Source: a virus (lineage: Duplodnaviria > Heunggongvirae > Uroviricota > Caudoviricetes). Taken from it: DNA of 64,000 bases. Location of the stretch: positions 259,388-323,387 of the IMG/VR virus record IMGVR_UViG_3300044557_000292. One strand, written 5' to 3'. Shown one piece after another: positions 11,565-60,557 of the stretch. Below the pieces are notes generated by a model. It made no database searches and had not been told where the DNA came from. It saw nothing but the letters and a program-made list of their open reading frames with translations. How positions within the stretch are numbered: the first letter of the stretch is position 1; each line of letters begins with the position of its first letter. Position numbers and translations under genes: made by a program.

Positions 11565-12791
11565 TCAGTACTCATCCACGTCCACATTCTCATGGACTTC
11601 ATCGTCTGGCTCTGGAGCAGAGTCTAGCTCATCTAGCTCTTCAACCTCATCATCAACGATTGGCTTAGCATTCGGATCTGGTAGAAGGCTCCTCGGAACG
11701 ACAGCCTTAGAACCCTCGGCAAAGCCTGGTATGGTTTTTCTCTGTTCCATAATGTACTCGCGCATGAGAGCATCATCAATGTTCTGCCAGTGGGCTTCCT
11801 TATCCTTATGAGTGGTCACGCCCTCCAGGTACGGTATGAATGTCCCATAAGGGTTCATAGATTCGGGCATAAGGTCATCAATACGCTCATAACCAGGCTT
11901 CCTTGCAAGACGCTGCCTGAACTTCGAGTAGTCAACGAGGTGATGGATTCTCCCGAATTTGAGGATCGCGAACGTGGTTTCAGGATATGACTTCACGAGA
12001 TACTTGACCTTACGCAGAGTCCCCTCCTGATGGAACGCTTCGGTCATTCCTCCCTTCTGTGATTGCGTGTCGGGGGTCTGATAGGCGAGTATCTTACTAG
12101 ACACGTTGACGAACCCCCTCTTCTCGTAGTCTAGGGAGATCGTCACGTCATCATTGAATCTCGATCTCCACGGAATCTTTGGTCCATCTGTACGGAATCG
12201 TATGCAAGTGTACGTCTTGCAGTTGACGGAGAACTGCGAGTTCTTCCTATGATTCTGCACGAGACCCTGCTTGTCGATCTCAGCGAGACCAATGTTGTCA
12301 AACTTGTCGAGGAATCGTTGGTACAAGCAGAAGATGTCATTGAGGCTCAGTCTCTTCTCCCTAACGCCCCCGTTCGCGATGTCCTTCGTCCAAATGTTCT
12401 TCTGGAAGAAGAATGCGTCCACGGTGAAGCTCTGAATGTCATCATCCATCATCCAGTAGTGCTTGAGACCCATATCGATGGCCAGTTGGTGGAGAGCGTT
12501 CCTGGCTGGCCCTGGACCAGTGGTGAGCCCCGGCTGCCATCCAAGATCATCACAATAGTCGAATCCATCGGGGTGATTAGCATCCCTAGGACTCTTGAAC
12601 CTCTCAAGATCAAATGCGTACACGTGAGACTCCGGCTCGTACACGCCATCATCGCGGAGTCTCCTCACGTAAGACCAGTAGTCATCAGGCTCAACAATAT
12701 AGACCCAGTTGTGGATGTCAAATGCTTCCAGGTTACGATGGGTGTTGCAGTTAGACCCCCTGCCCTTACTCGGTATGAAGGTCGTATCCAT
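11565..12791 (-). CDS. TAGT/GREB1-type GT-A glycosyltransferase (putative DNA base glycosylation)
   Basis: FIPSKGR, VYIVEPDD...Y, YWMMDDDI, RFNDDV, QSQKGGMT. Confidence 0.7.
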   Translation of the reverse strand: MDTTFIPSKGRGSNCNTHRNLEAFDIHNWVYIVEPDDYWSYVRRLRDDGVYEPESHVYAFDLERFKSPRDANHPDGFDYCDDLGWQPGLTTGPGPARNALHQLAIDMGLKHYWMMDDDIQSFTVDAFFFQKNIWTKDIANGGVREKRLSLNDIFCLYQRFLDKFDNIGLAEIDKQGLVQNHRKNSQFSVNCKTYTCIRFRTDGPKIPWRSRFNDDVTISLDYEKRGFVNVSSKILAYQTPDTQSQKGGMTEAFHQEGTLRKVKYLVKSYPETTFAILKFGRIHHLVDYSKFRQRLARKPGYERIDDLMPESMNPYGTFIPYLEGVTTHKDKEAHWQNIDDALMREYIMEQRKTIPGFAEGSKAVVPRSLLPDPNAKPIVDDEVEELDELDSAPEPDDEVHENVDVDEY

Positions 12792-46976: not shown

Positions 46977-47097
46977 CGGCCTGCAGGATACTTCTCATGC
47001 AGCATGTCTAGAATGATCCATCAGATTGATGGCTGCTAACCTTCAGCATACTTCTCTATGTTCCCTATTCATCCAATATACGATTACAAGTTTACGG

Positions 47098-47169
47098 TTG
47101 CCTGAGAAGGACTCGAACCTCCAGTATCCCCGTCCAGGGCGGGGCGCGTTGCCATTGCGCTATCAGGCA
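47098..47169 (-). tRNA. tRNA-Gln(CTG), C33
   Basis: Cloverleaf; CCCCG-CCCTGGA-CGGGG. Confidence 0.8.
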
Positions 47170-47347
47170 ATAAAATGGGCGGCTGGTTCCATGCAGCCGG
47201 CCTTACGCCGGCCCATGGGGGTACTCAATGGATATGATCCATTCGTTGACCACCAGCACCCCACGATCATGGTTATCTTCAATCGCCATGATCGTGTTTC
47301 GCAGAATCCTGCATCATGTTGAAGACCACGATGCTATCAACTGTTAG

Positions 47348-47431
47348 CGGATGATGCGGGAGTCGAACCCGCCACGGTGTTACCCGAACCTCATTAGCAG
47401 TGAGGCGCTTTAACCGCTCAGCCTACCATCC
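47348..47431 (-). tRNA. tRNA-Ser(GCT)
   Basis: Long V-arm, G73, loop CTGCTAA. Confidence 0.92.
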
Positions 47432-47684
47432 ATACGCACTTCATATCAATTGCCGGAGTAAACCAGCAGTATCATTATAACTCTTGCAGCCCGATCGTGT
47501 CAACCCCATCAGAATCATGCGAGAAACCTGCCATGACCTCAGCCTCATGAGCATCGGTCTTACCGGCAGACCCTCCCCTGCTGATGGTGAAGCAGATGGA
47601 ATCATGGCGGTCGGAATTTCCTCACCAATTCCTCCTGAGTTTTATGATTACCCAACCCAGTGATGTGGACTCATCGTTACTCTC

Positions 47685-47855
47685 CTACTTCCTGCCGGGA
47701 TGAATAGGATGATCAGTGCTCCCAATAATCGCCGTGAGACGTGGAGCAGGTGTGAAGCCATCCATGAACGCATTCAGGCGCACCCTGGAGTCCTCAAGCT
47801 CTTTCCTCGTGAGGGGACCACGGTCAATCACGTAACTCTTGTCTATGCTACTCAT
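47685..47855 (-). CDS. small hypothetical protein (56 aa)
   Basis: RBS GGAGG, MSSIDKSYVIDRGP. Confidence 0.5.
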   Translation of the reverse strand: MSSIDKSYVIDRGPLTRKELEDSRVRLNAFMDGFTPAPRLTAIIGSTDHPIHPGRK

Positions 47856-47895
47856 TTTCCCGTCCTCCATCGTTTCAATGAATAATTGCATGGAG

Positions 47896-47968
47896 TGGAA
47901 GCGACGGGGATCGAACCCGCTTCCTCCTGCGTGCAAGGCAGGTGTCCTACCATTAGGACCTCGCCCCC
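47896..47968 (-). tRNA. tRNA-Ala(TGC)
   Basis: G3-U70, loop CTTGCAC. Confidence 0.92.
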
Positions 47969-48011
47969 ATTTGTGGAATACATGGACACAGTGCTATATC
48001 CATGCATCTAG

Positions 48012-48096
48012 CGGATGATGGGGGATTCGAACCCCCGGTGGTGTTACCCACTCCTGTTTTCTAGACAGGTGCACTAAACCGCTATGCGAATCATCC
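48012..48096 (-). tRNA. tRNA-Ser(AGA)
   Basis: Long V-arm, G73, loop CTAGAAA. Confidence 0.9.
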
Positions 48097-48097
48097 G

Positions 48098-48170
48098 AGC
48101 CAGCAATCGGTTTCGAACCGATGACCTTCTCATTACAAGTGAGATGCTCTACCATCTGAGCTATGCTGGC
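48098..48170 (-). tRNA. tRNA-Thr(TGT)
   Basis: Loop CTTGTAA. Confidence 0.93.
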
Positions 48171-48190
48171 AATTTTATGAAGTGATCCTT

Positions 48191-48548
48191 GAAGGCGGCC
48201 TGTAGCCACGGTTCTGTCCACATGATGACGAATAGGATCATCATGTTGTACCATCATCCATCTACTCCCGCTACCTGTCCTTATAACGATCGAATAAATC
48301 TAGACGTTCTGCGGTTTCACCGGGACTGGCTTGCCAAGGTTCCCCTCACGAGGATTAACCCACGATTTCTTACATCGTGCTTTTCACCCTTACCTGTGAT
48401 TCCTTATGGAATCCATCGGCGGTATGGTCTCTGCGGCGCTATCACTACTCTCACGGGCGGTGGGATTACCCCACGTCCCTATTCTATGGTGCCGTGAACT
48501 TCCTCTGAAAGAACGTCGTGTTCTACCAGCGATGATCCAGCTGCCTTC
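48191..48548 (-). ncRNA. rnpB: RNase P RNA (type A-like, P18 apparently absent)
   Basis: P1 GAAGGC/GCCTTC; GAGGAAGTTCACGG pairing with ACAGAACCGTGGCTA (P4); GATAGCGCCGCAGAGA..ACCGCC; GGTAAGGGTGAAA; AGATGGATGAT (P2). Confidence 0.88.
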
Positions 48549-48598
48549 AAAATGTTACGAGCTAACCCAATAAAAATTCGAGCAATCACGTATCATCG

Positions 48599-48668
48599 TG
48601 CTCATAATCGGAATCGAACCGATAACAATATACCCATATGGGAATAAAACCACCAGGTGAGCTAATAT
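48599..48668 (-). pseudogene. tRNA remnant
   Basis: Intact T-arm ATCGG-TTCGATT-CCGAT, partial acceptor, no usable D or anticodon arm. Confidence 0.45.
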
Positions 48669-48670
48669 TT

Positions 48671-49132
48671 TTAGACTAATAATGATGACAATTCCGTTAC
48701 CATTAACTCTAGTGTATGACGCCTTTCATTCATAAGAAACGAATTATTGACCTCATTACCATGATTATCAAATGATACCGATTGGTCCCACATGACCCAA
48801 TCATCCTTGTACTTGTTAATATCATTGATAAGTTCATTAGCAAGATATCTACAAGTTCTTAAACCCTCATAATCCATAAGATCATGGGTCAACAGGCCAT
48901 CATCAATGCTCGTTGATACGGAGTAAAGAATGCCATCAAAATCAAGGAATCCTACCGAATATCCCTCCGCGTCAAGACTTACATTCAAATGAACGTCATC
49001 CTGATTAGCGGTAAGAACATCGATAAAATATTGAAGCAAGATTATAGGTACGTCATCAGTATAACTCACACTGCCTACACGCTTGTTATTAATAACAAGA
49101 TCAGCGTACCCAGAACTTGGCTTTGATAACAA
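48671..49132 (-). CDS. hypothetical protein (AT-rich insert)
   Basis: 153 aa, RBS AAGGAG, TTG start. Confidence 0.75.
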   Translation of the reverse strand: MLSKPSSGYADLVINNKRVGSVSYTDDVPIILLQYFIDVLTANQDDVHLNVSLDAEGYSVGFLDFDGILYSVSTSIDDGLLTHDLMDYEGLRTCRYLANELINDINKYKDDWVMWDQSVSFDNHGNEVNNSFLMNERRHTLELMVTELSSLLV

Positions 49133-49169
49133 AACGTTCTCCTTAACTATATCTCCCTATATCGTGAGG

Positions 49170-49240
49170 AGCGGTCGACGGGAATCGAACCCGCATCATC
49201 TCACAGGCAATGAGACGCCTTACCATTGGGCTACGACCGC
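49170..49240 (-). tRNA. tRNA-Gly(GCC)
   Basis: U73, loop TTGCCTG. Confidence 0.9.
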
Positions 49241-49496
49241 GTGAAAACCTAGCCAGTCCCCGGAGTGATCATGCATAATCAGACCAGGGGGACGGCTAGG
49301 AACTAAAATGTCGGCCATCATGGATGGGAAGATCCTCGCCTAATTGGAAATACCATAGCGATTGATGTCTTCATGACTGCTAACCGGGCGATCCCCATGA
49401 CGCAACAGAATCCTCAGGGCTAGGCGCATCCACGCCTAGTCCTACTCCCCCATTCGGGAACTGCACGAGCATCACGCCTGCAAGAAGTGACCGACG

Positions 49497-49571
49497 TGCT
49501 TCCAACAGGATTCGAACCTGTGATCTCCTCCGTGTAAAGGAGGCGCCTTAGGCCAACTAGGCTACAGAAGC
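49497..49571 (-). tRNA. tRNA-Val(TAC)
   Basis: Loop TTTACAC. Confidence 0.92.
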
Positions 49572-49576
49572 AAGAT

Positions 49577-49620
49577 GTGTACAAGCGTGTACAAATAAGA
49601 TCGTGTACAAGCGTGCATAA
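49577..49620. repeat. GTGTACAA direct repeats (3 exact + 1 variant)
   Basis: At 49577, 49587, 49603, 49613. Confidence 0.7.
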
Positions 49621-49645
49621 TCCTATCCGCGTACTGGACGCGTGA

Positions 49646-49810
49646 TCAATCAACCCTAGAATCTTTATCAGGGTCTTTATCCTTCAGGGTCTTCATGAAG
49701 GCGATAGAGGAGTCAACCAGTGAGTTCATCTTACGCTCAGTAGAATTCCTAGGGTGAGCGACCCTGGTATAACCGGGAATAAGCTTCCTATCCGTTGGGT
49801 TCTTACCCAT
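49646..49810 (-). CDS. small hypothetical protein (54 aa)
   Basis: RBS GGAGG, MGKNPTDRKLIPG. Confidence 0.55.
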   Translation of the reverse strand: MGKNPTDRKLIPGYTRVAHPRNSTERKMNSLVDSSIAFMKTLKDKDPDKDSRVD

Positions 49811-49857
49811 ATCAGCCTCCAAATCCTGTGATTGTGATCCTATGTATGCTTGTTGCG

Positions 49858-49933
49858 TAGCGGGGGCGCGATTCGAACGCGCGATCTCTTGATTATGGGT
49901 CAAGCGAGGACAGCCGAGCTCCTCTACCCCGCA
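49858..49933 (-). tRNA. tRNA-Met(CAT), initiator-like acceptor, C33
   Basis: U1:U72 mismatch, CTTGA-CCCATAA-TCAAG. Confidence 0.85.
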
Positions 49934-49935
49934 AG

Positions 49936-50008
49936 TGCTTTCAACAGGACTCGAACCTGTGACCTATTCCGTGTGATGGAAGCGCGCTGCCATCTGCGCC
50001 ATGAAAGC
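49936..50008 (-). tRNA. tRNA-Val(CAC)
   Basis: Loop ATCACAC. Confidence 0.88.
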
Positions 50009-50220
50009 ATAAGTGGACGAGACTGCCTCTCCTTATGTCTTATCCATAATGCACCGTGCGTGATCATAAAACCCCCACGGGAGAGACGTGCTGACTGCTG
50101 TGGAGCATCAATGATCACAGCCTGTTATCACTGATCATCACCCCAATGGAGAACAACTCCCGTTATCTCAGGGACTGTTGCCCTCCACCAGTTACGACAA
50201 TGATCAATGGATGCTCTGCG

Positions 50221-50291
50221 AGCGGATGACGGGAATCGAACCCGCGTATCTTCCATGGGAGGGAAGCGCCTTACCATTGGGCTACATCCGC
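50221..50291 (-). tRNA. tRNA-Gly(CCC)
   Basis: U73, loop CTCCCAT. Confidence 0.92.
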
Positions 50292-50484
50292 AGCGCCAGG
50301 ATCTTACGTGTCCTGGCAGGAACACTCCAGACTCCATACTCCACCTCGAGGTCAGTATTTCCACCAGCCCCTACAGGAGTGCTGTCACGACTGCCCTCAC
50401 CGTCAACCACGTATCGGTTACAGGCTGGGGGGGGGAGTGCAGCTGCCCTAAACGTCTAGCTATAATAGAACAAACCAGACATCG

Positions 50485-50555
50485 AGGGGATGACGGGAGC
50501 CGAACCCGCGTAACCTGCTTGGAGGGCAGGCGCACTACCGTTATGCTACATCCCC
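50485..50555 (-). tRNA. tRNA-Gly(TCC), C33
   Basis: U73, loop CCTCCAA. Confidence 0.88.
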
Positions 50556-50683
50556 ATGTATCCTGAAACCATCACCGTGGCATGCTCAAGATGGACGAAG
50601 GGTGTTCAGGACTGCACACCCTCTGTTTCCTTATCCCCCTATTGCGAGGTGAAATCACGATGATGACAAAAGATTTATGTCAA

Positions 50684-51261
50684 TTATCTGTGAGGGTTAG
50701 ATCTTTCAGATTGTAATTTACGAAGGCATTCTTTGCTACAAGATTTTCTAACCTTCCTTGATGTATAAGAAAACTCACGCCCACACGCTTCACAAACGCT
50801 AACTCTACTACGTTTTTTGAGCGTATTCAATCTTCTGCATTCAAAGTAATTAACAGAAGTACGACTCACAAAACCAGTACCGTTCAATGGAACATTGCTG
50901 GATGAAGTTTACGCATCGATTCTGAAGTTTTCTGTCTAGTTTTACTACTTTGAGACCAAGTTCTCGTAAGACTATTAGGAATTTGCCCGTAGAATAATGG
51001 CTTAAGAGTTACAAACCATTTCATCTCTAGAAAATCCTTAATCCTATTGGAATTCTCGCATTGTTCAAGAATTTGAAATCTAAGAGCGTGAGGATCTCCA
51101 CCGTGTCTATTAAACCACTTTATAAATTCCTTACGATTATGATTACCAGACTTCAAACCCTTTAAGTGAGCTTTCCATCGTTCTTGAATATCCTTAGATT
51201 GACCAACGTAAAGACACGCTCCGTTGTAAGAATCAAAAATTGCGTAAATCCCACAAGCCAT
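50684..51261 (-). CDS. GIY-YIG homing endonuclease split in two frames (51261..50884 and 50887..50684)
   Basis: CGIYAI..LYVGQS..R, NUMOD3-like SSKTRQKTSES; CxxC..CS..C Zn finger in -1 frame. Confidence 0.75.
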
Positions 51262-51344
51262 TGCTTATTACCACCTTAATGTTTTAAGAAACAAACGTTA
51301 AGATATCATTAGTAATGAAAATCAATCCTCTCAAGAGGATATCG

Positions 51345-51415
51345 TACCCCATGATTGAGTTGAACAATCTTAAGATGTTTATAAGACATCCTTGCGCTAC
51401 CGGCGACAATGGGGT
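51345..51415 (-). tRNA. tRNA-Ile(TAT), weak D-arm
   Basis: ACCCCAT/ATGGGGT, GATGT-CTTATAA-ACATC, GATTG-TTCAACT-CAATC. Confidence 0.7.
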
Positions 51416-51427
51416 GAATGTCCACAA

Positions 51428-51527
51428 TATGGGTTCACCGTGATTAATCACGCCGTGAGCATGAGGACTAGGGTAAGGATAACCTAACCCTCACCTTGAC
51501 GGCAATTGGAATCACGGTGAACCCATA
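51428..51527 (-). ncRNA. candidate 100-nt rod-like RNA
   Basis: Perfect 18-bp terminal stem plus nested GCCGT/ACGGC, GTGAGG/CCTCAT, TAGG/CCTA. Confidence 0.45.
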
Positions 51528-51656
51528 ATTAATAGATATAGGAGGTTTCTCATGACTGATCAGATTCAATGCTGCCACAATGATTCCCATGCAATGGAAT
51601 CATTCCACTGATCCATCATGACCGATCCGGGGAAATGATCAAAACCCGGATCAGCG

Positions 51657-51731
51657 TAGCCATATCGGGGCTCGAACCCGAATTCTCTTCATTGAAGGTG
51701 AAGTGAGATAAACCAGTTACTCTATATGGCC
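51657..51731 (-). tRNA. tRNA-Glu(TTC), C33
   Basis: Loop CCTTCAA; 5' end overlaps stop of upstream endonuclease. Confidence 0.9.
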
Positions 51732-52861
51732 CTTCTAGTTCTCCCTAGCTTCCTAATAGGAACACCAAGAAAATTTAATCTATTCTCTACAGTAGTATGA
51801 GAAATTCCTAATTGTTCAGCAATTGCGTCCATACTCATTTCCTTTATAGAATAACATTTCTGAATTTCATCATCTAGGTTATTTGCTATTCCATATCTAC
51901 CAAGTTGAGCACAAATTCGTGAACAATATGTTTTATCTTTAACTTTTCTTCTAAAGATTGTAAAATGTTTTCCGCAATAATCACAAACATAATGGTATCC
52001 ATCTTTAGGCGTTTTGTGTATTTCTTGAAGAAGCAATCCGTGTTCTTTTAAACATCTTCTCACATGATTCCTACTGATGTGAAGTTTCTTGGCTGTGTCA
52101 TATGTACTGATTCCAGATTTATAGGTATCAATGATAATATCCTCAATACTATCAACTTCTTCATGATAACATTCATCTGCCTTTCTTGTTTTTGGATTTA
52201 TTCTATTGTCGCAAGAAACATTATTGCGTTTCAAGAATTTATCTAAAGATCCTCGACTGATATGAAGTTTTAATGATATATCGCGTATGGCAAAACCAGA
52301 CCGATAAAGTTCGTTAATAGTATTTTCAATACCATCAATTTCGTCATGATAATGCTTTTCAGCTCGTTTCTTAATTTCTTCAGCTCCAAGACTGATTTCG
52401 GGGTCCAATCTATTAGGCCAAGGAGCACAGATAGCATGATTCATAAGACATTCACCAATATTACGGCCATATTTTATCAGTAATGTTTCCATCACGTCAA
52501 GATCTGTTTTAAACCACGCATAAGCAATGAATGTTTTAATAACATCACCCTCACTATTGGAATTAATGTGCTCCTTAACATCCCTACCACTACTCTTATA
52601 ACGACGCCAACCAGGATTGCCGCTATTGTGCTTATCTTTACTATAATAATCACAAGCTAACTTGCGCTGACCTATGTATGTCTTGCCATCAGACTTGGTT
52701 GTTATCAGATAAATATAACCGTATGGAGTATCATGCGGATCATGCTCAGTCTTAATCTCGTCAGACTTCAACCTGAACATGGTTCGTAGTCGCTCTACGC
52801 GTTCATGCAATGGTAATGATTCCATACGATATATGGCACCAATTAGTATCAAGAATCGCAC
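51722..52861 (-). CDS. GIY-YIG (Seg-like) endonuclease with HTH repeats and Zn finger
   Basis: YGYIYLIT..KTYIGQR, three HTH-like repeats, CDYC..CSRIC; start uncertain. Confidence 0.85.
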   Translation of the reverse strand: MRFLILIGAIYRMESLPLHERVERLRTMFRLKSDEIKTEHDPHDTPYGYIYLITTKSDGKTYIGQRKLACDYYSKDKHNSGNPGWRRYKSSGRDVKEHINSNSEGDVIKTFIAYAWFKTDLDVMETLLIKYGRNIGECLMNHAICAPWPNRLDPEISLGAEEIKKRAEKHYHDEIDGIENTINELYRSGFAIRDISLKLHISRGSLDKFLKRNNVSCDNRINPKTRKADECYHEEVDSIEDIIIDTYKSGISTYDTAKKLHISRNHVRRCLKEHGLLLQEIHKTPKDGYHYVCDYCGKHFTIFRRKVKDKTYCSRICAQLGRYGIANNLDDEIQKCYSIKEMSMDAIAEQLGISHTTVENRLNFLGVPIRKLGRTRRAI

Positions 52862-52887
52862 AAATTATGACCCTTTAGGGTCATAAG

Positions 52888-52961
52888 CGCCCCGAACAGG
52901 ATTCGAACCTGCAACCTACTGGGTAGAAACCAGCCGCTCTGATCCATTGGGCTACCGAGGC
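52888..52961 (-). tRNA. tRNA-Arg(TCT), acceptor stem imperfect
   Basis: Loop TTTCTAC; 3' acceptor strand one base short. Confidence 0.8.
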
Positions 52962-53058
52962 ATTAGGATTGGCGTGGTCGCGGATAAGACGATTATTCCA
53001 CATTTTCATTTTTCAGATTCAGCCGATCCTCTATATAATCAACCGGCTACCAATCCAG

Positions 53059-53132
53059 TGCCCGCAGTCGGATTCGAACCGGCAACCTTCTCCTTAGGGG
53101 GGAGACGCTCTATCCAGTTGGGCTATGCGGGC
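53059..53132 (-). tRNA. tRNA-Arg(CCT), C33
   Basis: Loop CCCCTAA. Confidence 0.88.
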
Positions 53133-53309
53133 ATGATGCAGACGTGATGAACGCGATCAGGAAGAATCTTTTCCATCAGACCACCGACATGCATAAGAGT
53201 CGGGCGGGATTCGAACCCGCATCTCTTCCATTACGCGCTCACCGCGTCTGTGCTCGGGGATTCCGGAATCCCCGCTTGAAACCGCACGGTTGCAATCCAT
53301 GCGGCCAAG

Positions 53310-53392
53310 TGCCCCGAGCGGGAGTCGAACCCGCACTTCCGAGGAAAGTTCTTTTTAAGAGAACCGCGTATACCAATTCCAGCCATCGGGGC
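53310..53392 (-). tRNA. tRNA-Leu(TAA)
   Basis: V-arm present, loop CTTAAAA. Confidence 0.92.
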
Positions 53393-53492
53393 GTTGGATG
53401 AGTTTACCGACATCATTAGGTCTAAGTATAAACGCTATTCCATTATCAAGCATTTGTTCACATTCACACGGTCAACGTGGCGAACAGTATTC

Positions 53493-53521
53493 ATTATATC
53501 ACGGTGCTGCGTGCTTGACAA
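53493..53521 (-). promoter_or_regulatory. sigmaA-type promoter inside tRNA array
   Basis: TTGTCA-17 nt-TATAAT with TG extension. Confidence 0.65.
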
Positions 53522-53566
53522 CGGCGTGTCGCAATCCCCCGCTATAAGTTTTGAATAATGGTCAGA

Positions 53567-53637
53567 CGTGGAGACGGGATTCGAACCCGCGTATAATTGA
53601 ATTGCGGTCAATTGCCTAACCATTTGGCTACTCCACG
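53567..53637 (-). tRNA. tRNA-Cys(GCA), C33
   Basis: U73, loop CCGCAAT. Confidence 0.88.
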
Positions 53638-53638
53638 G

Positions 53639-53710
53639 TACGGGCAGATCGAGTTGAACGATCCTTGCTTCTGTATCAGAGAAGTGTACTCACCGATGTA
53701 CGATGCCCGC
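53639..53710 (-). tRNA. tRNA-Ile(GAT)
   Basis: CTTCT-CTGATAC-AGAAG, T-loop TTCAACT. Confidence 0.8.
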
Positions 53711-53762
53711 GTATTCTACTCATTCTGCTGTTCGCGTGTGAGCACGAGGAGCGTGCTCATCG

Positions 53763-53836
53763 TCACAACGGGAGGACTCGAACCTCCGACATCCTGATTA
53801 TGATTCAGGCGCTCTCACCAGCTGAGCTACGTTGCG
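53763..53836 (-). tRNA. tRNA-Met(CAT) elongator (or Ile2)
   Basis: C1-G72 paired, loop ATCATAA. Confidence 0.88.
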
Positions 53837-53947
53837 TTACGAGATATAGACGGTCACGGCTGAGTCTACGATCAGTAAACATCCCCGCGGGCTGTGCGGC
53901 CACATGCCAGCGCTTCCTCCTATTGAAAGTCGCGCAAGCACCCACCG

Positions 53948-54019
53948 TGGATCCAACGAGAGTCGAACTCGCCACATCCTCCGTGCGGGGGAGGATCGCC
54001 ACCATCGGCATTTGGACCC
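53948..54019 (-). tRNA. tRNA-Ala(CGC), C33
   Basis: G3-U70, loop CCCGCAC. Confidence 0.85.
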
Positions 54020-54114
54020 ATAATAATGAATGTTATAATTGTGCTCGATTCGACATGCTGGTACGATGTACTAGAACCTCGATAGGGACCATAATGCTTC
54101 CATCATGATCCTCG

Positions 54115-54188
54115 TGCGAATGGATCGGCTTGAACGATTGACATCATCCTTATCAGGAATGCGCTCTAACCATCTGAGCTACATCCGC
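54115..54188 (-). tRNA. tRNA-Ile(GAT)
   Basis: Loop CTGATAA. Confidence 0.85.
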
Positions 54189-54219
54189 GAGCCTTATAAA
54201 TAGTTGAATAAGGAGTCAA

Positions 54220-54636
54220 TCAATTTGACAAACTTTTAATCGCGTTAATCACTTCTGTGCACTCCTTAACTTGTAATGATTCCACGCCATAACGATCAGC
54301 CACATTTTCAAGACGTGCTTCAAAGCTTACAAGATCCCCGCGTGAATCAACAGACATATCAGCCTTATTAAGGAGTATTCCTAACGTAGTATTCAGACCT
54401 TCCATCGTACCATGCGCTGCTACTTCTTTCCAGTGAACATAACCTTGGGATCTTAGCAAATCACCACCAATCTTAGCGTGAGTACGATTGTCCCCAATCA
54501 TGTACCCAAGATCATGCACCCATCCTAATAATGCTGCTTCTTGAGGATCAAGCCCATATTCTGATGCATGATTAAACATGTATTCTGCTACTCCTCGTGA
54601 GTGTGAAGCCCTAGTAGAATCAATAAAACTAATCAA
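54220..54636 (-). CDS. HD-domain phosphohydrolase (AT-rich insert)
   Basis: SHS, WVHDLG, HAKIG, AAHG, KAD. Confidence 0.85.
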   Translation of the reverse strand: MISFIDSTRASHSRGVAEYMFNHASEYGLDPQEAALLGWVHDLGYMIGDNRTHAKIGGDLLRSQGYVHWKEVAAHGTMEGLNTTLGILLNKADMSVDSRGDLVSFEARLENVADRYGVESLQVKECTEVINAIKSLSN

Positions 54637-54691
54637 TAATTCTCCTTATTAATAAATTGACACTCGAACGTACAAACCCATAACTAGGGTA

Positions 54692-54730
54692 CGTGCGGGG
54701 GAGGATCGCCACCAGCGGCATTTGGACCCA
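54692..54730 (-). pseudogene. 5' half of tRNA-Ala(CGC), duplicate of 53982..54020
   Basis: 38/39 identity, ends at the anticodon loop. Confidence 0.8.
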
Positions 54731-54760
54731 GGTAATGCTAACCGTATGGCTAGCATATCG

Positions 54761-54835
54761 TGCGGATGATGTGACTTGAACACATGACCTCATTCTTATC
54801 AGGAATGCGCTGCTAACCATCTGAGCTACATCCGC
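54761..54835 (-). tRNA. tRNA-Ile(GAT)
   Basis: Loop CTGATAA; paralogue of 54115..54188. Confidence 0.88.
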
Positions 54836-54883
54836 ATGTCTCATATAATGAATGACGGGCAGCAAGCCACGCCGATGATGGTC

Positions 54884-54975
54884 AGGTTCAACCCCTCTAC
54901 GCTGGGAATACCCGCGTTGTCAGACGCTTGCCCACTGAGCGCGGAGAGGTTCAACCCCTCTACGCTGGGAATACC
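54884..54975 (-). CRISPR. repeat-spacer-repeat mini-array, type I-E-like
   Basis: Two identical 29-nt repeats (minus GGTATTCCCAGCGTAGAGGGGTTGAACCT) and a 34-nt spacer. Confidence 0.5.
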
Positions 54976-55017
54976 TCCTAGGTCATCCGGGTACAATCAT
55001 CTACTCCCCTCACCACG

Positions 55018-55090
55018 AGCCAGCACCCGGAATCGGACCGGGGACCTTCTCATTACGAGTGAGACGCTCTACCATCTGAGCTATGCGGGC
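55018..55090 (-). tRNA. tRNA-Thr(CGT)
   Basis: Loop CTCGTAA, T-loop TCCGATT. Confidence 0.85.
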
Positions 55091-55267
55091 ATACACGATT
55101 TTATCCAGATCGTGAACTGGTTGGCGCGCCCTTAGTTAGATGCCGGTCAATCACTTCCACCAATTGTTAGCATCGTTCCCGCGAACAGCACGCGGACGCC
55201 ATCCCGCGTGACACTCACCCGAGTACGGTTCGGAGGTTGGGGCTGTGGACACTCCGATGGAGAGACG

Positions 55268-55341
55268 TGTTCGCAGCTGGATTTGGACCAGCGACCGCCT
55301 CCGTGTCAGGGAGGAACGCTACCGGACTGCGCCATGCGAAC
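55268..55341 (-). tRNA. tRNA-Val(GAC)
   Basis: Loop CTGACAC, T-loop TCCAAAT. Confidence 0.85.
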
Positions 55342-55403
55342 ATATGAGACCAAGACGCCTGATCCACAGGCAATCAACGATTGCCATGGACGTGGACGCG
55401 GAG

Positions 55404-55476
55404 AGCCAACAGATGGAATCGAACCATCGACCTTCTCATTACTGGTGAGACGCTCTACCAACTGAGCTATGCAGGC
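55404..55476 (-). tRNA. tRNA-Thr(AGT), C33
   Basis: Loop CCAGTAA. Confidence 0.85.
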
Positions 55477-55583
55477 AAGATGGACGGCTTGGGTGATCCC
55501 ATTTGCCGTCACGACTCGAAGCATGAACCCGCCAGTTCATGTTTCTCATCGTGACGGCCGCACTACTAGGAATACCGTCAATG

Positions 55584-55657
55584 TGCCTCCAGCCGGGTTC
55601 GAACCGGCGGCATCTTGTTTCGAAGACAAGCGCTCTGATCCGCTGAGCTATGGAGGC
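55584..55657 (-). tRNA. tRNA-Arg(TCG)
   Basis: Loop CTTCGAA. Confidence 0.9.
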
Positions 55658-55789
55658 AAGTAGTGATTGGCGAGGCGTGCAACCATGCTGCATCTGCGGA
55701 ATCGGACCGGTGCAGGAATACGGACTCGAGCCGTTACCCTTCGCCACGGGGCAACCAGCCCCAATCCTACCACACCGGGTAGGACGCAG

Positions 55790-55862
55790 TTCTCCCAATC
55801 GGTCTCGAACCGATGACACCCTGCTTAAGAGGCAGGTGCTCTACCATCTGAGCTATAGGAGC
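55790..55862 (-). tRNA. tRNA-Lys(CTT), G1:A72 mismatch
   Basis: Loop CTCTTAA. Confidence 0.87.
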
Positions 55863-55900
55863 ATTATCTCCCAAATCATCAATCACAATGACTGGAATTG

Positions 55901-55974
55901 GGTGACTGGAGGAACTCGAATCCTCGACCTGCTGAACCACAATCAGCCGCTCTAACCATCTGAGCTACAGCCAC
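55901..55974 (-). tRNA. tRNA-His(GTG)
   Basis: C73, loop TTGTGGT; base -1 is T. Confidence 0.9.
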
Positions 55975-55976
55975 AG

Positions 55977-56049
55977 CTCCCCGTGAAGGATTCGAACCTC
56001 CAACCTCTGCATTCAGAGTGCAGCGCACGGCCAAACATGCTGACGGGGA
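55977..56049 (-). tRNA. tRNA-Gln(CTG)
   Basis: U1-A72, G73, loop CTCTGAA. Confidence 0.9.
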
Positions 56050-56090
56050 ATATTAGGACTCATTGAGATTACTATTCTCAATGCTTCCAG

Positions 56091-56161
56091 CTGCCCACCA
56101 TGGATTCGAACCATGCTTGGAGGTACCAAAAGCCTCAGTCCTGCCAATAGACGAGTGGGCA
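56091..56161 (-). tRNA. tRNA-Gln(TTG)
   Basis: U1-A72, G73, loop TTTTGGT. Confidence 0.88.
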
Positions 56162-56422
56162 ATATGAAAATCCAGCTCTTAACGGAAGCTGGAATGAAGC
56201 TCTTAATATGCGAATCCGCACTAGACTATCGTTCTCAATGATTCCTAGTTTCTAGTATCATTGCGTCCATGAGCTACCGACGTCCAAGTGAATGGCGGTC
56301 AAGCACATGCGAGTACAGTGATCTCTATGATCACAAATGATGCTCACATTGGATTAACGCTTAACCAGATCCGCTGCAGTCCAGTTCGAGAGGCGGGCGT
56401 GGTGCGCACGCAAGCCGCCAAG

Positions 56423-56495
56423 TGCTCTCAGTGGGATTCGAACCCGCAGCCTCCTGTTCCGTAGACAGACGCTCTATCCGTTGAGCTATGAGAGC
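56423..56495 (-). tRNA. tRNA-Arg(ACG)
   Basis: Loop CTACGGA. Confidence 0.92.
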
Positions 56496-56528
56496 AAAAT
56501 AACAAAAACGACTCTAAAAGCCATTTCG

Positions 56529-56600
56529 TGCCCCATGGGAATTCTGCCATCCCGACCCGATGCTTAAAAGGCACCTGTTCTCCTTCTGAACTAATGAGGC
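56529..56600 (-). tRNA. tRNA-Lys(TTT), non-canonical T-arm
   Basis: Loop CTTTTAA; T-arm GGGATGGCAGAATTCCC. Confidence 0.75.
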
Positions 56601-56827
56601 AAATATAAGATTTGATGGAAGCATAGCCTGGTCATGGCTCCAATCCATGTTACCATCCCGTCACCATGATTACGATTGCTAGCATTACCGTCATCATGAT
56701 GGCTGCGAGTCACGTTCTATACGCTCATGGTCCGGAGTCTAACCGGATCCCATTGGAGACCTGCACTCCACTCTCGCACAGCTACGAGCCGCCCATCCTA
56801 TCCTCATAAGAGGTAAGGATCGCATCG

Positions 56828-56899
56828 TACGCCCGCCGGAACTTGAATCCGGTCCAGCGGTTTTGGAGACCATTATGCTTCCAATCACACTACAGACGA
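56828..56899 (-). tRNA. tRNA-Trp(CCA), degenerate stems
   Basis: Loop CTCCAAA. Confidence 0.75.
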
Positions 56900-56901
56900 C
56901 G

Positions 56902-56975
56902 TGCCCTCCACGGGATTCGAACCCGCACTGAACAGCTCCTAAGGCTGTTGCCTCTGCCAGTTGGGCTAAGAGGGC
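56902..56975 (-). tRNA. tRNA-Leu(TAG), short variable loop
   Basis: Loop CTTAGGA, 74 nt. Confidence 0.9.
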
Positions 56976-57174
56976 TTGAATGCGCAATAAATGGTGGGTT
57001 TATTGTCATCACCGGGACATTGACGCCACGCGTTCATCCAGAGCATTCGCTGGGGACAACCGGTCAGGCTTGGTGTTACGATTCTATCGTAACACACAAC
57101 TGCGAATCGTGATGATTGGCGTGTCTTAAGTGTGAGCAGGTGAGCCCCATCTGAGGGGATGATGCTCAAGCGCG

Positions 57175-57247
57175 TGGAACCGGGGGGAGTCGAACCCTCT
57201 ACCTCTTCCGTGCTGGGGAAGCGCTCTACCAGTTGAGCTACGGTCCC
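57175..57247 (-). tRNA. tRNA-Ala(AGC), C33
   Basis: G3-U70, loop CCAGCAC. Confidence 0.88.
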
Positions 57248-57248
57248 G

Positions 57249-57320
57249 CACGTCGGCAAGGAATCGAACCCTGATCGGGAGGTTTGGAAGCTCCTGTCCT
57301 TCCAGTTGGACGACCGACGC
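57249..57320 (-). tRNA. tRNA-Trp(CCA)
   Basis: G73, loop TTCCAAA. Confidence 0.87.
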
Positions 57321-57329
57321 ATGATGCGG

Positions 57330-57400
57330 ACAATGAGTAGGACTGTCGCGCCCGCCTGGCATGAAGCCAGGCAGCGGGTTAAACCCCGCTGTACTCATTG
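57330..57400 (-). ncRNA. non-canonical cloverleaf RNA with TCA anticodon
   Basis: 9-bp acceptor CAATGAGTA/TACTCATTG, 7-bp D stem, CCTGG-CTTCATG-CCAGG, 4-bp T stem, no V-arm. Confidence 0.55.
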
Positions 57401-57458
57401 CCCTGATATGATGATGTAGACGAGGTCACAGCCACCCTATCATTCGTCTACACCAGCG

Positions 57459-57538
57459 TGGTGCGTGAGGGACTCGAACCCCCGTACCCGAGAGAGCTGA
57501 TTTACAGTCAGCCGCATTTGCCGCTCTGCCAACGCACC
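57459..57538 (-). tRNA. tRNA-Tyr(GTA)
   Basis: V-arm, loop CTGTAAA. Confidence 0.92.
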
Positions 57539-57630
57539 ATGTGATCACCGCTGGGCTGCTGTGCTTCCACCCTGACCCTGTGACGATGACGGCGACCCGT
57601 GAGTACATTATATGCTCACACCGTCGCCAG

Positions 57631-57704
57631 TGCCGACAGTCCGGGTCGAACGGACAACCTCCGAGGCTTCAACTCGGCGCTCTTGCCAATTGAGCTATGA
57701 CGGC
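57631..57704 (-). tRNA. tRNA-Phe(GAA)
   Basis: Loop TTGAAGC. Confidence 0.9.
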
Positions 57705-57705
57705 G

Positions 57706-57788
57706 TGCATCCAGTCTGATTTGAACAGACATGCCTTATCGGCAATGGCTTCTGAAGCCATCGTGTATACCAGTTTCACCATGAATGC
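57706..57788 (-). tRNA. tRNA-Leu(CAG), long V-arm
   Basis: Loop TTCAGAA. Confidence 0.88.
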
Positions 57789-57930
57789 AAATGGCGGCTT
57801 CCCCGCCAGCACTGGTGTTCTCATCGAACGAGCAATGGCGTTGAACGGGCGCATCACAGACTGAACCTCATCCAACCGATGGGATTTTTACCAGACTGAA
57901 CCCTGGAGTGCCTTTGCCGTGGCTCCGCCG

Positions 57931-57995
57931 TAGTCTCAACAGGACTCGAACCTGATTCGTCTGACATGGGAGGCAGACGTACTACCAATGAGACA
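57931..57995 (-). pseudogene. D-armless tRNA-like RNA (CCC loop)
   Basis: GTCTCA/TGAGAC acceptor, 10-nt linker in place of D-arm, GTCTG/CAGAC stem, CAGG-TTCGAGT-CCTG. Confidence 0.55.
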
Positions 57996-58135
57996 TTTCT
58001 AAATTATGTAGACAATAGCATGAATGTGGGCGTTGCACCCACAGGGTCGCTATAGCATTCGGCTCGTTAGTGGTCACGACTAACCATGATAATCTTTACG
58101 ATTATGCTGCTAACTCAAAGCCTACTGATACTGCG

Positions 58136-58224
58136 CGGTTGATGAGGGATTCGAACCCCCGGTGGACGTTAATCCACGCTTGTTTAGTAGACAAGTGCCA
58201 TAAGCCAGACTCGGCCAATCAACC
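58136..58224 (-). tRNA. tRNA-Ser(ACT)
   Basis: Long V-arm, G73, loop CTACTAA. Confidence 0.9.
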
Positions 58225-58422
58225 ATATGATTGCTTGACGGACAATCATGAGGACAAAGCTCCGCGGAGCGCTCCGCCCACCGGCTAGGCCATCAACCCA
58301 GCGTAATGTGCGTCCCTGCTTGCAGATGCTGTCAGGATTCCTCATCTGCATGTCCATCCTCACAATAAGTCCTGTCATTATTGGATGGGCTGGCTAGATA
58401 CGTTGCCATATCCAGGGGCGCG

Positions 58423-58509
58423 CGGATGATGGGGGATTTGAACCCTCGGTGGTGTGACCCACTCCGTCTTTCGAGGACGGTGCACTAAACCAGACTATGC
58501 GAATCATCC
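58423..58509 (-). tRNA. tRNA-Ser(CGA)
   Basis: Long V-arm, loop CTCGAAA. Confidence 0.92.
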
Positions 58510-58545
58510 ATATGCTGATCATGTGGCCATTGGCAGCAAGATCCG

Positions 58546-58619
58546 TCCCTCGTATCGGCGACGATCCGATCACTCCCTGATTAAGAGTCAGGTGCTCTAC
58601 CAACATGAGCTAACGAGGG
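58546..58619 (-). tRNA. tRNA-Lys(CTT), atypical T-loop
   Basis: Loop CTCTTAA, T-loop ATCGTCG. Confidence 0.82.
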
Positions 58620-58620
58620 G

Positions 58621-58694
58621 TTGCGGAGAATGGATTCGAACCATTGACTTCGTGGGTATGAGCCACGCGAGCTACCGAACTGCTCTACTCCGCG
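58621..58694 (-). tRNA. initiator tRNA-fMet(CAT)
   Basis: C1:A72 mismatch, CGTGG-CTCATAC-CCACG. Confidence 0.9.
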
Positions 58695-58768
58695 TGTCCC
58701 CTATGGGATTCGAACCCATACTAGACGGCTCCTTAGGCCGACGCCTCTACCAATTGGGCTAAAGGGAC
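58695..58768 (-). tRNA. tRNA-Leu(AAG), short variable loop
   Basis: Loop CTAAGGA, 74 nt. Confidence 0.87.
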
Positions 58769-58855
58769 ATGATACGTGGATGCGATCATGATCGTCACCA
58801 GTCACGCATCCACGATAGGGCCAACTGGTGACAACCGTCGCTGTCATCGTGTGCC

Positions 58856-58946
58856 CGGTTCTCAGGGGGATTCGAACCCACGCTCGCTGGGAATGACCCC
58901 TCGCACCACTTTATCGGCGGCTGCTACCATTGCATCATTGAGAACC
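58856..58946 (-). ncRNA. class II tRNA-like RNA with 8-bp acceptor, G73, loop CGATAAA
   Basis: GGTTCTCA/TGAGAACC, T-loop TTCGAAT, long V-arm. Confidence 0.55.
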
Positions 58947-58949
58947 ACG

Positions 58950-59035
58950 TGCCCTCACCCGGATTCGAACCGAGAGCCCCATCACGGGAAGACGGGTTTG
59001 AGCCGTCCGCGTCTACCAATTCCAGCCATGAGGGC
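58950..59035 (-). tRNA. tRNA-Leu(CAA)
   Basis: Long V-arm, loop CTCAAAC. Confidence 0.92.
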
Positions 59036-59191
59036 AATTTGCTTAATGCTCTGTAAGGAGAATCACTTATGATCATCAGGACTGCAAGCGCAAGCCGTAT
59101 GCGCTCACCGGGTGACTATCCCCCGCCAAGGGAAGAATTGCCGCCAACAATTCTTGTCATCATCCCCACGGTTGTCCATTCCCGTGGTAAG

Positions 59192-59265
59192 TACTCTCCA
59201 TGGGATTCGAACCCATGCTAGACGGTCCCTGAAACCGCCTCCTCTGCCAATCGGGCTAGGAGAGC
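59192..59265 (-). tRNA. tRNA-Leu(CAG), short variable loop
   Basis: Loop TTCAGGG, 74 nt. Confidence 0.87.
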
Positions 59266-59322
59266 ATAACGTGCCGTCAATCCCACCGTGGTTTGGGGAG
59301 TTGAACCATTGACGGCACATAG

Positions 59323-59396
59323 TAGCCTCATCGGGACTCGAACCCGAAGTCTCATCCTTGAGAGGGATGCGAGGTGACCAGTTACTCTATGAGGCC
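59323..59396 (-). tRNA. tRNA-Glu(CTC)
   Basis: Loop CTCTCAA. Confidence 0.92.
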
Positions 59397-59397
59397 G

Positions 59398-59482
59398 CGG
59401 ATGATGAGGGATTCGAACCCCCGGTGGTGTTACCCACTCTTGTTTTCAAGACAAGTGCACTCGACCGCTATGCGAATCATCC
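59398..59482 (-). tRNA. tRNA-Ser(TGA)
   Basis: Long V-arm, loop CTTGAAA. Confidence 0.92.
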
Positions 59483-59581
59483 AAATATTGTATGCAGTAA
59501 GAGCTAGGAGCCCCCGCCGCGCCGGGCCACAGCCTTACCGGCTTGTCCAGCCCTCGAGTAAGCATCCTTATCGAGCCCGCG

Positions 59582-59653
59582 CGACCACGACGGGAATCGG
59601 ACCCGCTCTAGCTTGCTCGACAGGCAAGTGTCCAACCGGAGGACCTCGTGGCC
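59582..59653 (-). tRNA. tRNA-Asp(GTC)
   Basis: G73, loop CTGTCGA, T-loop TCCGATT. Confidence 0.85.
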
Positions 59654-59728
59654 ATAATGATGCAGACAGCATTACGTGATGAAAACAATGTCAGAACTTT
59701 CATCGGAATCTGTCCACATTCACCTACG

Positions 59729-59803
59729 CTCCCTGTACTAGAGTCGAACTAGTTGCCTCTCGATTAACAGTCGAGCGCAGCCGCCGAAGGCTGCTCACAG
59801 GGA
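59729..59803 (-). tRNA. tRNA-Asn(GTT)
   Basis: U1-A72, G73, loop CTGTTAA. Confidence 0.9.
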
Positions 59804-59809
59804 ATAATA

Positions 59810-60250
59810 GATGGGCGTTTAACGTGCGCCCATCATGCACGGCATGTTTTTCTATCCGACTGCTCGGACTGCTTAGACCAGCTCACCACTTGGACATGAC
59901 TGACAGCATGCGCTGTCAACCGTCACCGCGGATTGCCTATAGGGAACATCTGAAGAAGTATGTTTATTGTCTACCGGCGCTCGACCTTCACAACGAGCTT
60001 GGTACCCGGCTCACGGATTATACGTACTGGGACACAATGTGACCCCGGGTAGCATCTTGAGGACAAGACGCGACCACACCTCGCTTTCTCCGTGCGAGAT
60101 CCAGAATACTGGCGCTCCATCATGCAGACGAGTTGACTAGACCCGTATGGTCTCCTGACCAAGCGCGATAATTCTTTAACATTCCGGTACCGTGGCCGTC
60201 GCATTGCTTCCTCATCTGGAGTTGCACCAGACCTCATTATTAGATTATCA
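59810..60250 (-). ncRNA. candidate large structured ncRNA
   Basis: About 440 nt without tRNA or credible CDS, at least 9 hairpins. Confidence 0.45.
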
Positions 60251-60315
60251 GACCATCCTCACCATGATTCCATGCGGTCAAGCATGTCCACAGGGTGACC
60301 AGATGACGGTCATCG

Positions 60316-60389
60316 TCGGGATGACAGGATTTGAACCTGCGGCATCTTGCTCCCAAAGCAAGCGCGCTACCAAGCTGCGCTACATCCCG
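60316..60389 (-). tRNA. tRNA-Pro(TGG)
   Basis: C1-G72, loop TTTGGGA. Confidence 0.93.
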
Positions 60390-60484
60390 AAATATTAAGT
60401 TATGTCACTACGCTGGACGGTTTCCCGTTGAGCGCGGCACATCCAATGATAACACACCCGTTAGGGTACGCGGTCAGCGGCGTG

Positions 60485-60557
60485 TCGGGATGGCGGGGAT
60501 CGAACCCGCTGTCTCCTGCTCCCGAAGCAGGCGGATTACCTTTCCTCCCTCATCCCG
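60485..60557 (-). tRNA. tRNA-Pro(CGG)
   Basis: C1-G72, loop TTCGGGA. Confidence 0.9.

What the first reader, a model, noticed from the sequence alone, without database searches (positions are those of the whole stretch)
57328..57403. UCA-anticodon cloverleaf with a 9/4 fold and no variable arm
Seen: a four-way junction with a 9-bp acceptor (extendable to 12 bp), 7-bp D stem, a 5-6 bp anticodon stem with loop CU-UCA-UG, a 4-bp T stem, then U-CC. G-U pairs favour the minus strand. It sits between Tyr and Trp tRNAs. Established: 13-bp acceptor+T stacks and long D stems typify tRNA-Sec, but Sec and allo-tRNAs need a long V-arm, which is absent. No selA/selB was seen. Inference: a new opal suppressor (U73 suggests Cys or Gly) or a tRNA-mimic decoy.
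Basis: partly seen in the sequence, partly recalled or inferred. Interest (0 to 1): 0.78.

Follow-up and report, generated by a model that had tools for sequence, protein, structure and literature searches.

The report
tRNA-shaped relic, not a UGA reader
A giant phage-like element carries, between two ordinary tRNA genes, a very stable 76-base cloverleaf RNA that lacks the loop signatures a working tRNA needs, so its stop-codon-reading 'anticodon' is most likely accidental and the RNA a decayed, partly inverted tRNA look-alike rather than a new suppressor tRNA.

Summary
The fold is real: 57403-57328 (minus strand) is a four-way junction of 29 pairs (z -7.25), the most stable of 2,395 spacer windows in three related arrays. 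The tRNA reading is not supported. The middle loop is 5 nt with U at 37 (purine in 130 of 132 array tRNAs); there is no UUCRA T loop, no D-loop GG, no U8 and no variable arm. TGA is this genome's commonest stop; selA, selB and CysRS were not found. No homologue was found beyond near-identical strains, so covariation could not be tested. The best remaining tRNA signal lies on the opposite strand: the 5'-most hairpin is the reverse complement of a T arm lacking one base, and UCA is then the mirror of UGA. Most likely a non-decoding relic of one of the array's many tRNA-shaped RNAs, inverted and perfected by template switching; a decoy or Y-RNA-like mimic is the main rival. The scan noted UCA-bearing non-decoding tRNA mimics on other phage DNA, but not this RNA.

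The parts
57328..57403 (-). 76-nt four-way junction, 29 base pairs, the finding
57392..57403 (-). 5' arm of the 12-bp closing helix (a near-perfect terminal inverted repeat with 57328-57339)
57328..57339 (-).
57354..57372 (-). hairpin 2, 7 bp, loop UUCAU; the 'UCA anticodon' is 57364-57362, U37 is 57361
57410..57455 (-). neighbouring spacer hairpin with a 12-bp stem between tRNA-Tyr and the element; variable between strains
57458..57538 (-). tRNA-Tyr(GTA), upstream neighbour
57248..57320 (-). tRNA-Trp(CCA), downstream neighbour, begins 7 nt after the element

Best explanation
A non-decoding relic of a tRNA-shaped gene. The array holds many irregular tRNA-like RNAs; one of them decayed, and polymerase template switching between its inverted repeats perfected and lengthened the stems and inverted either the 52-nt interior between the 12-bp arms or just the T loop. 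The array transcript therefore carries a mirror-like cloverleaf with ideal helices but without working T, D or anticodon loops. It is probably co-transcribed with its neighbours and cut off when tRNA-Tyr and tRNA-Trp are matured, and acts at most as a stable spacer module. Shown: the fold, the missing signatures, the strand bias of the residual T-arm signal, the lack of homologues in what could be searched. Inferred: the origin, the inversion, transcription and the lack of function.
For: Signatures absent against 132 tRNAs of this and two related arrays: purine 37 in 130, UUCRA in 120, U8 in 112, GG in the D region in all. Other irregular tRNA-like RNAs of these arrays keep a canonical T loop on the sense strand and score 10-20 bits on a tRNA profile, whereas the element scores 0.5 (minus) and 2.3 (plus; reached by 3% of structure-keeping randomisations). 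The best full-length match of a model of the element in other arrays is the antisense of a tRNA-Gly. Spacers of these arrays are full of near-perfect hairpins; template switching homogenises inverted-repeat arms and inverts their spacers (PMC8604942). No homologue in the full array of a 491-kb relative or 7 kb of a 349-kb relative. The array is fluid: a close strain lacks 5 kb of it.
Against: The whole-gene similarity to tRNA is weak on both strands, so the ancestry is not established. Both G-U pairs fit the minus strand and become A-C mismatches on the plus strand. Three close strains or samples carry the covered part unchanged, one of them while the adjacent hairpin has 4 substitutions in about 48 nt, a faint hint of selection. 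The spacer inversions documented in the cited paper are 2-5 bp, shorter than 52 nt. Relatives are few and one array is incomplete, so 'no homologue' is weak. No expression data were available.
Confidence: 0.55

Rival explanations
1. A functional non-decoding tRNA mimic or decoy. The 12-bp closing helix equals the length of an acceptor plus T stack and is followed by G73-C74 like the real tRNAs; the element's own RNase P and CCA-adding enzyme could mature it into a stable RNA that soaks up host anticodon nucleases or tRNA-binding defence proteins.
For: Most stable spacer fold of three arrays; N73 followed by C as in 129 of 132 tRNAs; a CCA-type nucleotidyltransferase lies 2.6 kb beyond the window and a relative has an Rfam RNase P hit in its array; unchanged in close strains; many other tRNA-shaped non-standard RNAs in these arrays.
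Against: Position -1 is A (U in 96 of 112 leaders); no T loop for RNase P or CCA enzyme to measure from; all other mimics keep UUCRA; not found in relatives; one contig in run X11 skips 57297-57457 (a weak hint).
Confidence: 0.2
2. A degenerate Y-RNA-like (YrlA-type) permuted tRNA mimic: closing stem, T arm, 7-bp acceptor hairpin, 4-bp D arm. UCA is then part of the array's leader motif UCAU before G1, not an anticodon.
For: Helix order and lengths fit YrlA (PMC4201824); hairpin 1 has the array's commonest T stem GCGGG/CCCGC and TCAT ends 12 of 112 leaders against 1.2% background; a clearer YrlA-like RNA lies at 53135-53251 and the 491-kb relative has a Ro60 (TROVE) gene at the end of its array; both G-U pairs fit; a 6-nt loop inversion would explain the T-loop.
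Against: No RF02553 match at this place; no score on a permuted tRNA profile where the YrlA control gives 16 bits; Ro-binding motif GNCGAAN0-1G absent (GGCAAUG is one base short); no TROVE gene found in this genome; no D-loop GG.
Confidence: 0.13
3. A composite spacer built around a worn CRISPR repeat, tRNA-like by coincidence.
For: Hairpin 1 matches 12 of 13 bases of the 3' half of the genome's type I-E repeat and is the only such match outside repeats and their derivatives; repeat remnants lie in the array near 54900-54970.
Against: The repeat's own hairpin and 5' half are missing; a reversed T arm explains the same bases plus four more; it does not explain the other three helices.
Confidence: 0.07
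4. A working opal (UGA) suppressor with a selenocysteine-like 9/4 fold and no variable arm.
For: C32-U33-UCA in register on a CCUGG/CCAGG stem; this arm scores in the top 2% of spacer hairpins on an anticodon-arm profile and hairpin 3 in the top 2-5% on a T-arm profile; helix lengths 9, 7, 6, 4 recall eukaryotic and archaeal tRNA-Sec (own knowledge).
Against: Fold 12 kcal/mol above the ground state with U73-C-C and C32-G38 paired; U37; no T-loop, D-loop or U8 signatures; G at -1 in only 2 of 112 leaders; TGA ends 149 of 291 long ORFs with no excess of open frame behind it, and the two stops inside genes aligned to relatives are TAA and TAG; no selA, selB, CysRS or release factor; no homologue.
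Confidence: 0.05

Closest known systems
tRNA-Sec (selC; Rfam RF01852), 9/4 archaeal-eukaryotic and 8/5 bacterial forms
   Same: UCA letters in the middle hairpin, long second and third stems, a possible 9+4 stack if three pairs are ignored.
   Different: No long variable arm, U37, no UUCRA T loop, no D-loop GG, closing helix of 12 bp; no Rfam match; two actinobacterial tRNA-Sec genes fetched for comparison keep loop CUUCAAA, a long V arm and UUCGAUU.
allo-tRNAs and SelC* tRNA-Cys (Mukai et al., PMC5389517)
   Same: Irregular cloverleaf in a mobile-element tRNA cluster; SelC* has U73 with UCA or GCA.
   Different: Those have a 12-bp acceptor branch split 8/4 or 9/3, a long V arm and a D tetraloop; none applies here.
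Bacterial Y RNAs YrlA (RF02553) and D. radiodurans Yrn1 (Chen et al., PMC4201824)
   Same: Long closing stem around three hairpins; minus-strand order fits YrlA (T, acceptor, D), plus-strand order fits Yrn1 (D, AC, T, no V arm); Ro60 gene in a relative.
   Different: No Ro-binding motif, no canonical T loop on the transcribed strand, no Ro60 gene found in this genome, 76 nt only.
Degenerate tRNA-like genes (pseudo-tRNAs) and hairpin spacers of phage and plasmid tRNA arrays
   Same: Position between tRNA genes, perfect stems, loss of loop consensus, strain-level turnover.
   Different: A complete four-way junction with the residual T-arm signal on the opposite strand; no second case in the arrays examined.
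Opal suppressor tRNAs of TGA-recoded (code 4) phages
   Same: UCA triplet in a phage tRNA array.
   Different: Those are canonical cloverleafs in genomes that read TGA as Trp (own knowledge); this genome uses TGA as its main stop.

Membership tests
tRNA-Sec (selC) | UCA anticodon in a 7-nt loop with purine 37 | tested here: not met
   loop is 5 nt, C32-G38 paired, U37
tRNA-Sec (selC) | 13-bp acceptor plus T stack with free N73-CCA (G73) | tested here: not met
   closing helix 12 bp plus 4 bp; U73-C-C paired
tRNA-Sec (selC) | long variable arm | tested here: not met
   0-1 nt between hairpins 2 and 3
tRNA-Sec (selC) | SelA and SelB available | tested here: inconclusive
   none in the element; host unknown
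allo-tRNA / SelC* tRNA-Cys | 12-bp branch split 8/4 or 9/3, long V arm, D tetraloop | tested here: not met
canonical or suppressor tRNA | T loop UUCRA, D-loop GG, U8 | tested here: not met
   no RF00005 hit
canonical or suppressor tRNA | mature, CCA-tailed, aminoacylated RNA | not testable with these tools
   only assembled contigs were available
opal suppressor of a TGA-recoded phage | in-frame TGA inside genes | tested here: not met
YrlA-type Y RNA | order closing stem, T arm, acceptor hairpin, D arm | tested here: inconclusive
   helix lengths fit, sequence profile gives no score
YrlA-type Y RNA | GNCGAAN0-1G motif on the 5' strand | tested here: not met
   GGCAAUG, one base short
YrlA-type Y RNA | linked Ro60/Rsr gene | tested here: not met
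   none found in G000 by family or by tblastn with the relative's protein; present in relative L002/L006
conserved structured RNA gene of any kind | homologues with compensatory base changes | tested here: inconclusive
   only identical copies found; none in other arrays or genomes searched

The most novel reading that the evidence does not exclude
The RNA is a real, processed gene product of a new design: a tRNA mimic whose 12-bp closing helix stands in for the acceptor-T stack and which is matured by the element's own RNase P and CCA enzyme to act as a decoy. The stronger claim inside this case, that it reads UGA without a T loop or variable arm, has about 0.05.
Probability: 0.2. Interest if true: 0.7.

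Novelty: new variant of a known kind. Interest (0 to 1): 0.25.

Why it matters
If the best reading holds, this is a curiosity and a warning: cloverleaf shape plus a UCA triplet in a phage tRNA array does not make a suppressor, and mirror-image cloverleafs can turn a UGA into an apparent UCA anticodon. If the RNA is matured and works as a decoy, it would add a T-loop-free design to the tRNA mimics that giant elements use against host defences and would test what RNase P and CCA-adding enzyme need. If it reads UGA, it would overturn basic rules for bacterial tRNA (purine 37, T loop), but the evidence points away from that.

Tried and rejected
Homologue searches that gave nothing: blastn against GenBank phages and PLSDB plasmids; exact and degenerate patterns in IMG/VR (the one hit and the six are unrelated, apparently coding sequence); a pattern scan of GTDB (80 of 92 hits fetched, GC-rich partial matches to the pattern only); a single-sequence covariance model on the own genome, on the related arrays, on five actinobacterial plasmid and phage records and on 151 genomes of one phylum (the one hit lies inside long ORFs with broken pairs). 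The model rests on one sequence, so it is insensitive. Protein-led searches for more relatives mostly failed. The X11 joint was found at 80% likeness with a 32-nt side and may come from another element with adjacent Tyr and Trp genes; L029 ending at 57448 is likewise only a hint. ARAGORN's 'Pyl(CTA)' in relative L006 is a mis-registered tRNA-Arg(CCT), and its 'Stop(TTA)' has an irregular loop, so I do not count them as suppressors. No plus-strand promoter-like site was found that would serve the element. Literature searches found no description of such an RNA.

Full report
Setting. The window lies in a 419,707-base virus record with direct terminal repeats from bioreactor sludge. It holds 50 ARAGORN tRNA calls on the minus strand at 47096-60557 and a tmRNA, next to conjugation-type ATPase genes. 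The tmRNA tag and the lack of encoded CCA suggest an actinobacterial host (inference). The finding sits between tRNA-Tyr and tRNA-Trp, behind a separate 12-bp hairpin.

The fold is real. The minus strand of 57328-57403 folds into a four-way junction with 29 pairs, two of them G-U, at -49.0 kcal/mol (z -7.25; plus strand -38.0). Because spacers of this array are rich in hairpins, I compared it with 2,395 non-tRNA windows from this and two related arrays: it is the most stable, and the only strong four-way junction; 28 of 5,000 shuffles give a comparable junction.

The 9/4 tRNA is not the fold. The closing helix is 12 bp; the arms are 6 bp (loop GUUUAA), 7 bp (loop UUCAU) and 4 bp (loop GCGACA). 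Against 132 tRNAs of the three arrays: position 37 is a purine in 130 (here U), the T loop begins UUCRA in 120 (here GCGACA), U8 is present in 112 (absent here), every D region holds GG (absent in this loop), and the base before the gene is U in 96 of 112 and G in 2 (the 9-bp reading needs G). ARAGORN and Rfam find nothing here. Allo-tRNAs and SelC* need a long variable arm (PMC5389517).

The genome gives no job to a UGA reader. TGA ends 149 of 291 long ORFs, with no more open frame behind it than behind TAA or TAG. The two stops inside genes aligned to relatives are TAA and TAG. selB, selA, CysRS and release factors were not found; a CCA-type nucleotidyltransferase was.

Relatives. The sigma-like gene beside the array led to two large relatives: a 491-kb contig whose whole array was fetched (L006) and a 349-kb contig with 7 kb of array (L019). 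Both share several non-coding modules with this window, but local alignment, a structure descriptor and a covariance model found no homologue of the element. Wider searches were also blank (see Tried and rejected). Identical copies occur in a dust and a wastewater run and in a strain 99.4% identical overall, where the covered 51 nt are unchanged while the neighbouring hairpin has four substitutions. One dust contig skips 57297-57457 and another strain's contig ends at 57448; these are weak hints of a variable cassette. A close strain lacks 5 kb of the array. Covariation could not be tested.

What it resembles. These arrays hold many irregular tRNA-shaped RNAs, all with a canonical T loop on the sense strand; three used as controls score 10-20 bits on a tRNA profile, the element 0.5 on the minus and 2.3 on the plus strand. 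The best full-length match of the element's model in other arrays is the antisense of a tRNA-Gly. Arm by arm, hairpin 1 read on the plus strand is GCGGG-UUAAAC-CCCGC, one base short of a T arm (15.2 bits, above all 987 control hairpins), and it is then the 3'-most arm, where a T arm belongs; on the minus strand it scores 9.2, as reversed real T arms do (8.8). The middle arm scores 8.5 on the plus strand (loop CA-UGA-AG, with A37) and 7.1 on the minus. UCA is thus readily explained as the mirror of UGA, or as part of the array's leader motif UCAU. The signal is modest: six arm-strand tests were made, control windows overlap, and whole-gene similarity is only at p about 0.03.

How it most likely arose and works. 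A tRNA-shaped gene decayed; template switching between inverted repeats, which homogenises arms and inverts spacers (PMC8604942), would give perfect, over-long stems and a reversed interior or T loop. Because the arms of hairpin 1 are a perfect inverted repeat, inversion of the whole interior cannot be told from inversion of the 6-nt loop in a YrlA-ordered RNA; the second keeps both G-U pairs and links to the YrlA-like RNA at 53135-53251 and the Ro60 gene of the relative, though the Ro motif and a Ro60 gene are missing here. Either way the transcribed strand lacks the loops needed for decoding. It is probably released from the polycistronic precursor when its neighbours are matured. That it is transcribed, and whether it does anything, is inferred and untested. 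A 12-of-13 match of hairpin 1 to the genome's CRISPR repeat is a minor alternative origin.

Verdict. Structure confirmed, tRNA reading not supported. Relic or structural spacer 0.55, functional decoy 0.2, Y-RNA-like mimic 0.13, CRISPR-derived composite 0.07, UGA suppressor 0.05. New variant of a known kind; interest 0.25.

Noticed in passing
window 53135-53251 (-): YrlA-like permuted tRNA mimic with canonical T arm, acceptor hairpin and D arm (Rfam 22.8 bits, below gathering; z -5.3), although no Ro60 gene was found in this genome; the 491-kb relative has one at L006 14257-15879.
   Followed up: partly
window 57545-57629 (-): SRP-RNA-like hairpin (helix 8 motif) just upstream of tRNA-Tyr; the homologue in L004 563-652 scores 38.6 bits on Bacteria_small_SRP (gathering 40). 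With RNase P RNA and tmRNA, the element may carry its own set of housekeeping RNAs.
   Followed up: partly
window 58855-58946 (-) and L019 523-610 (+): Class II-like tRNA-shaped RNA with G73, canonical T loop and an irregular anticodon loop; the variable-arm motif GGGUCAUUCCC is shared with the relative while the anticodon letters are not.
   Followed up: partly
window 53948-54020 (-) and L006 9673-9748 (+): Atypical tRNA-Ala(CGC) missed by ARAGORN: G3-U70, 7-bp anticodon stem, almost no variable loop; a similar design occurs in mycobacteriophage ScoobyDoobyDoo tRNA-Ala(TGC) (L134 6374-6446).
   Followed up: partly
window 57930-57997 (-) and L006 about 6695-6765 (+): tRNA-like RNA with reduced D arm and widened anticodon loop, conserved in the relative, missed by ARAGORN and Rfam.
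   Followed up: no
window 58050-58134 (-) and L006 3047-3130 (+): Highly conserved structured non-tRNA module, near-identical over about 85 nt in elements whose sigma-like proteins are only 57% identical; no Rfam match.
   Followed up: no
window 56990-57050 (-), L006 about 11895-11970, L019 28-90: Conserved module with CAGCGWATGCTC and GTCCC..GAYGACRATAAAC in all three arrays; no Rfam match.
   Followed up: no
L006 4349-4410, 11545-11585, 13395-13445; L019 2130-2175: Several miniature tRNA-like RNAs with acceptor stem and canonical T arm but missing or shrunken D or anticodon arms in the relatives' arrays.
   Followed up: partly
G000 325999-326382 (-), 2.6 kb beyond the window: CCA-adding-type nucleotidyltransferase (PF01743, 541-aa frame), fitting tRNA genes that encode only N73-C74.
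   Followed up: no
L021 2341-2350: A close strain joins window 52903 to 47920, lacking about 5 kb of the array including the RNase P RNA, both GIY-YIG genes and several tRNAs.
   Followed up: no
L006 9129-9204 and 12712-12786: ARAGORN calls tRNA-Stop(TTA) and tRNA-Pyl(CTA); the second is a mis-registered Arg(CCT), the first has an irregular 9-nt loop that may be an Asn(ATT) derivative.
   Followed up: partly
G000 343314-345740 (-): Topoisomerase I is split by a TAA at about residue 468 of the aligned relative, as in relative L010 where it is two genes.
   Followed up: no
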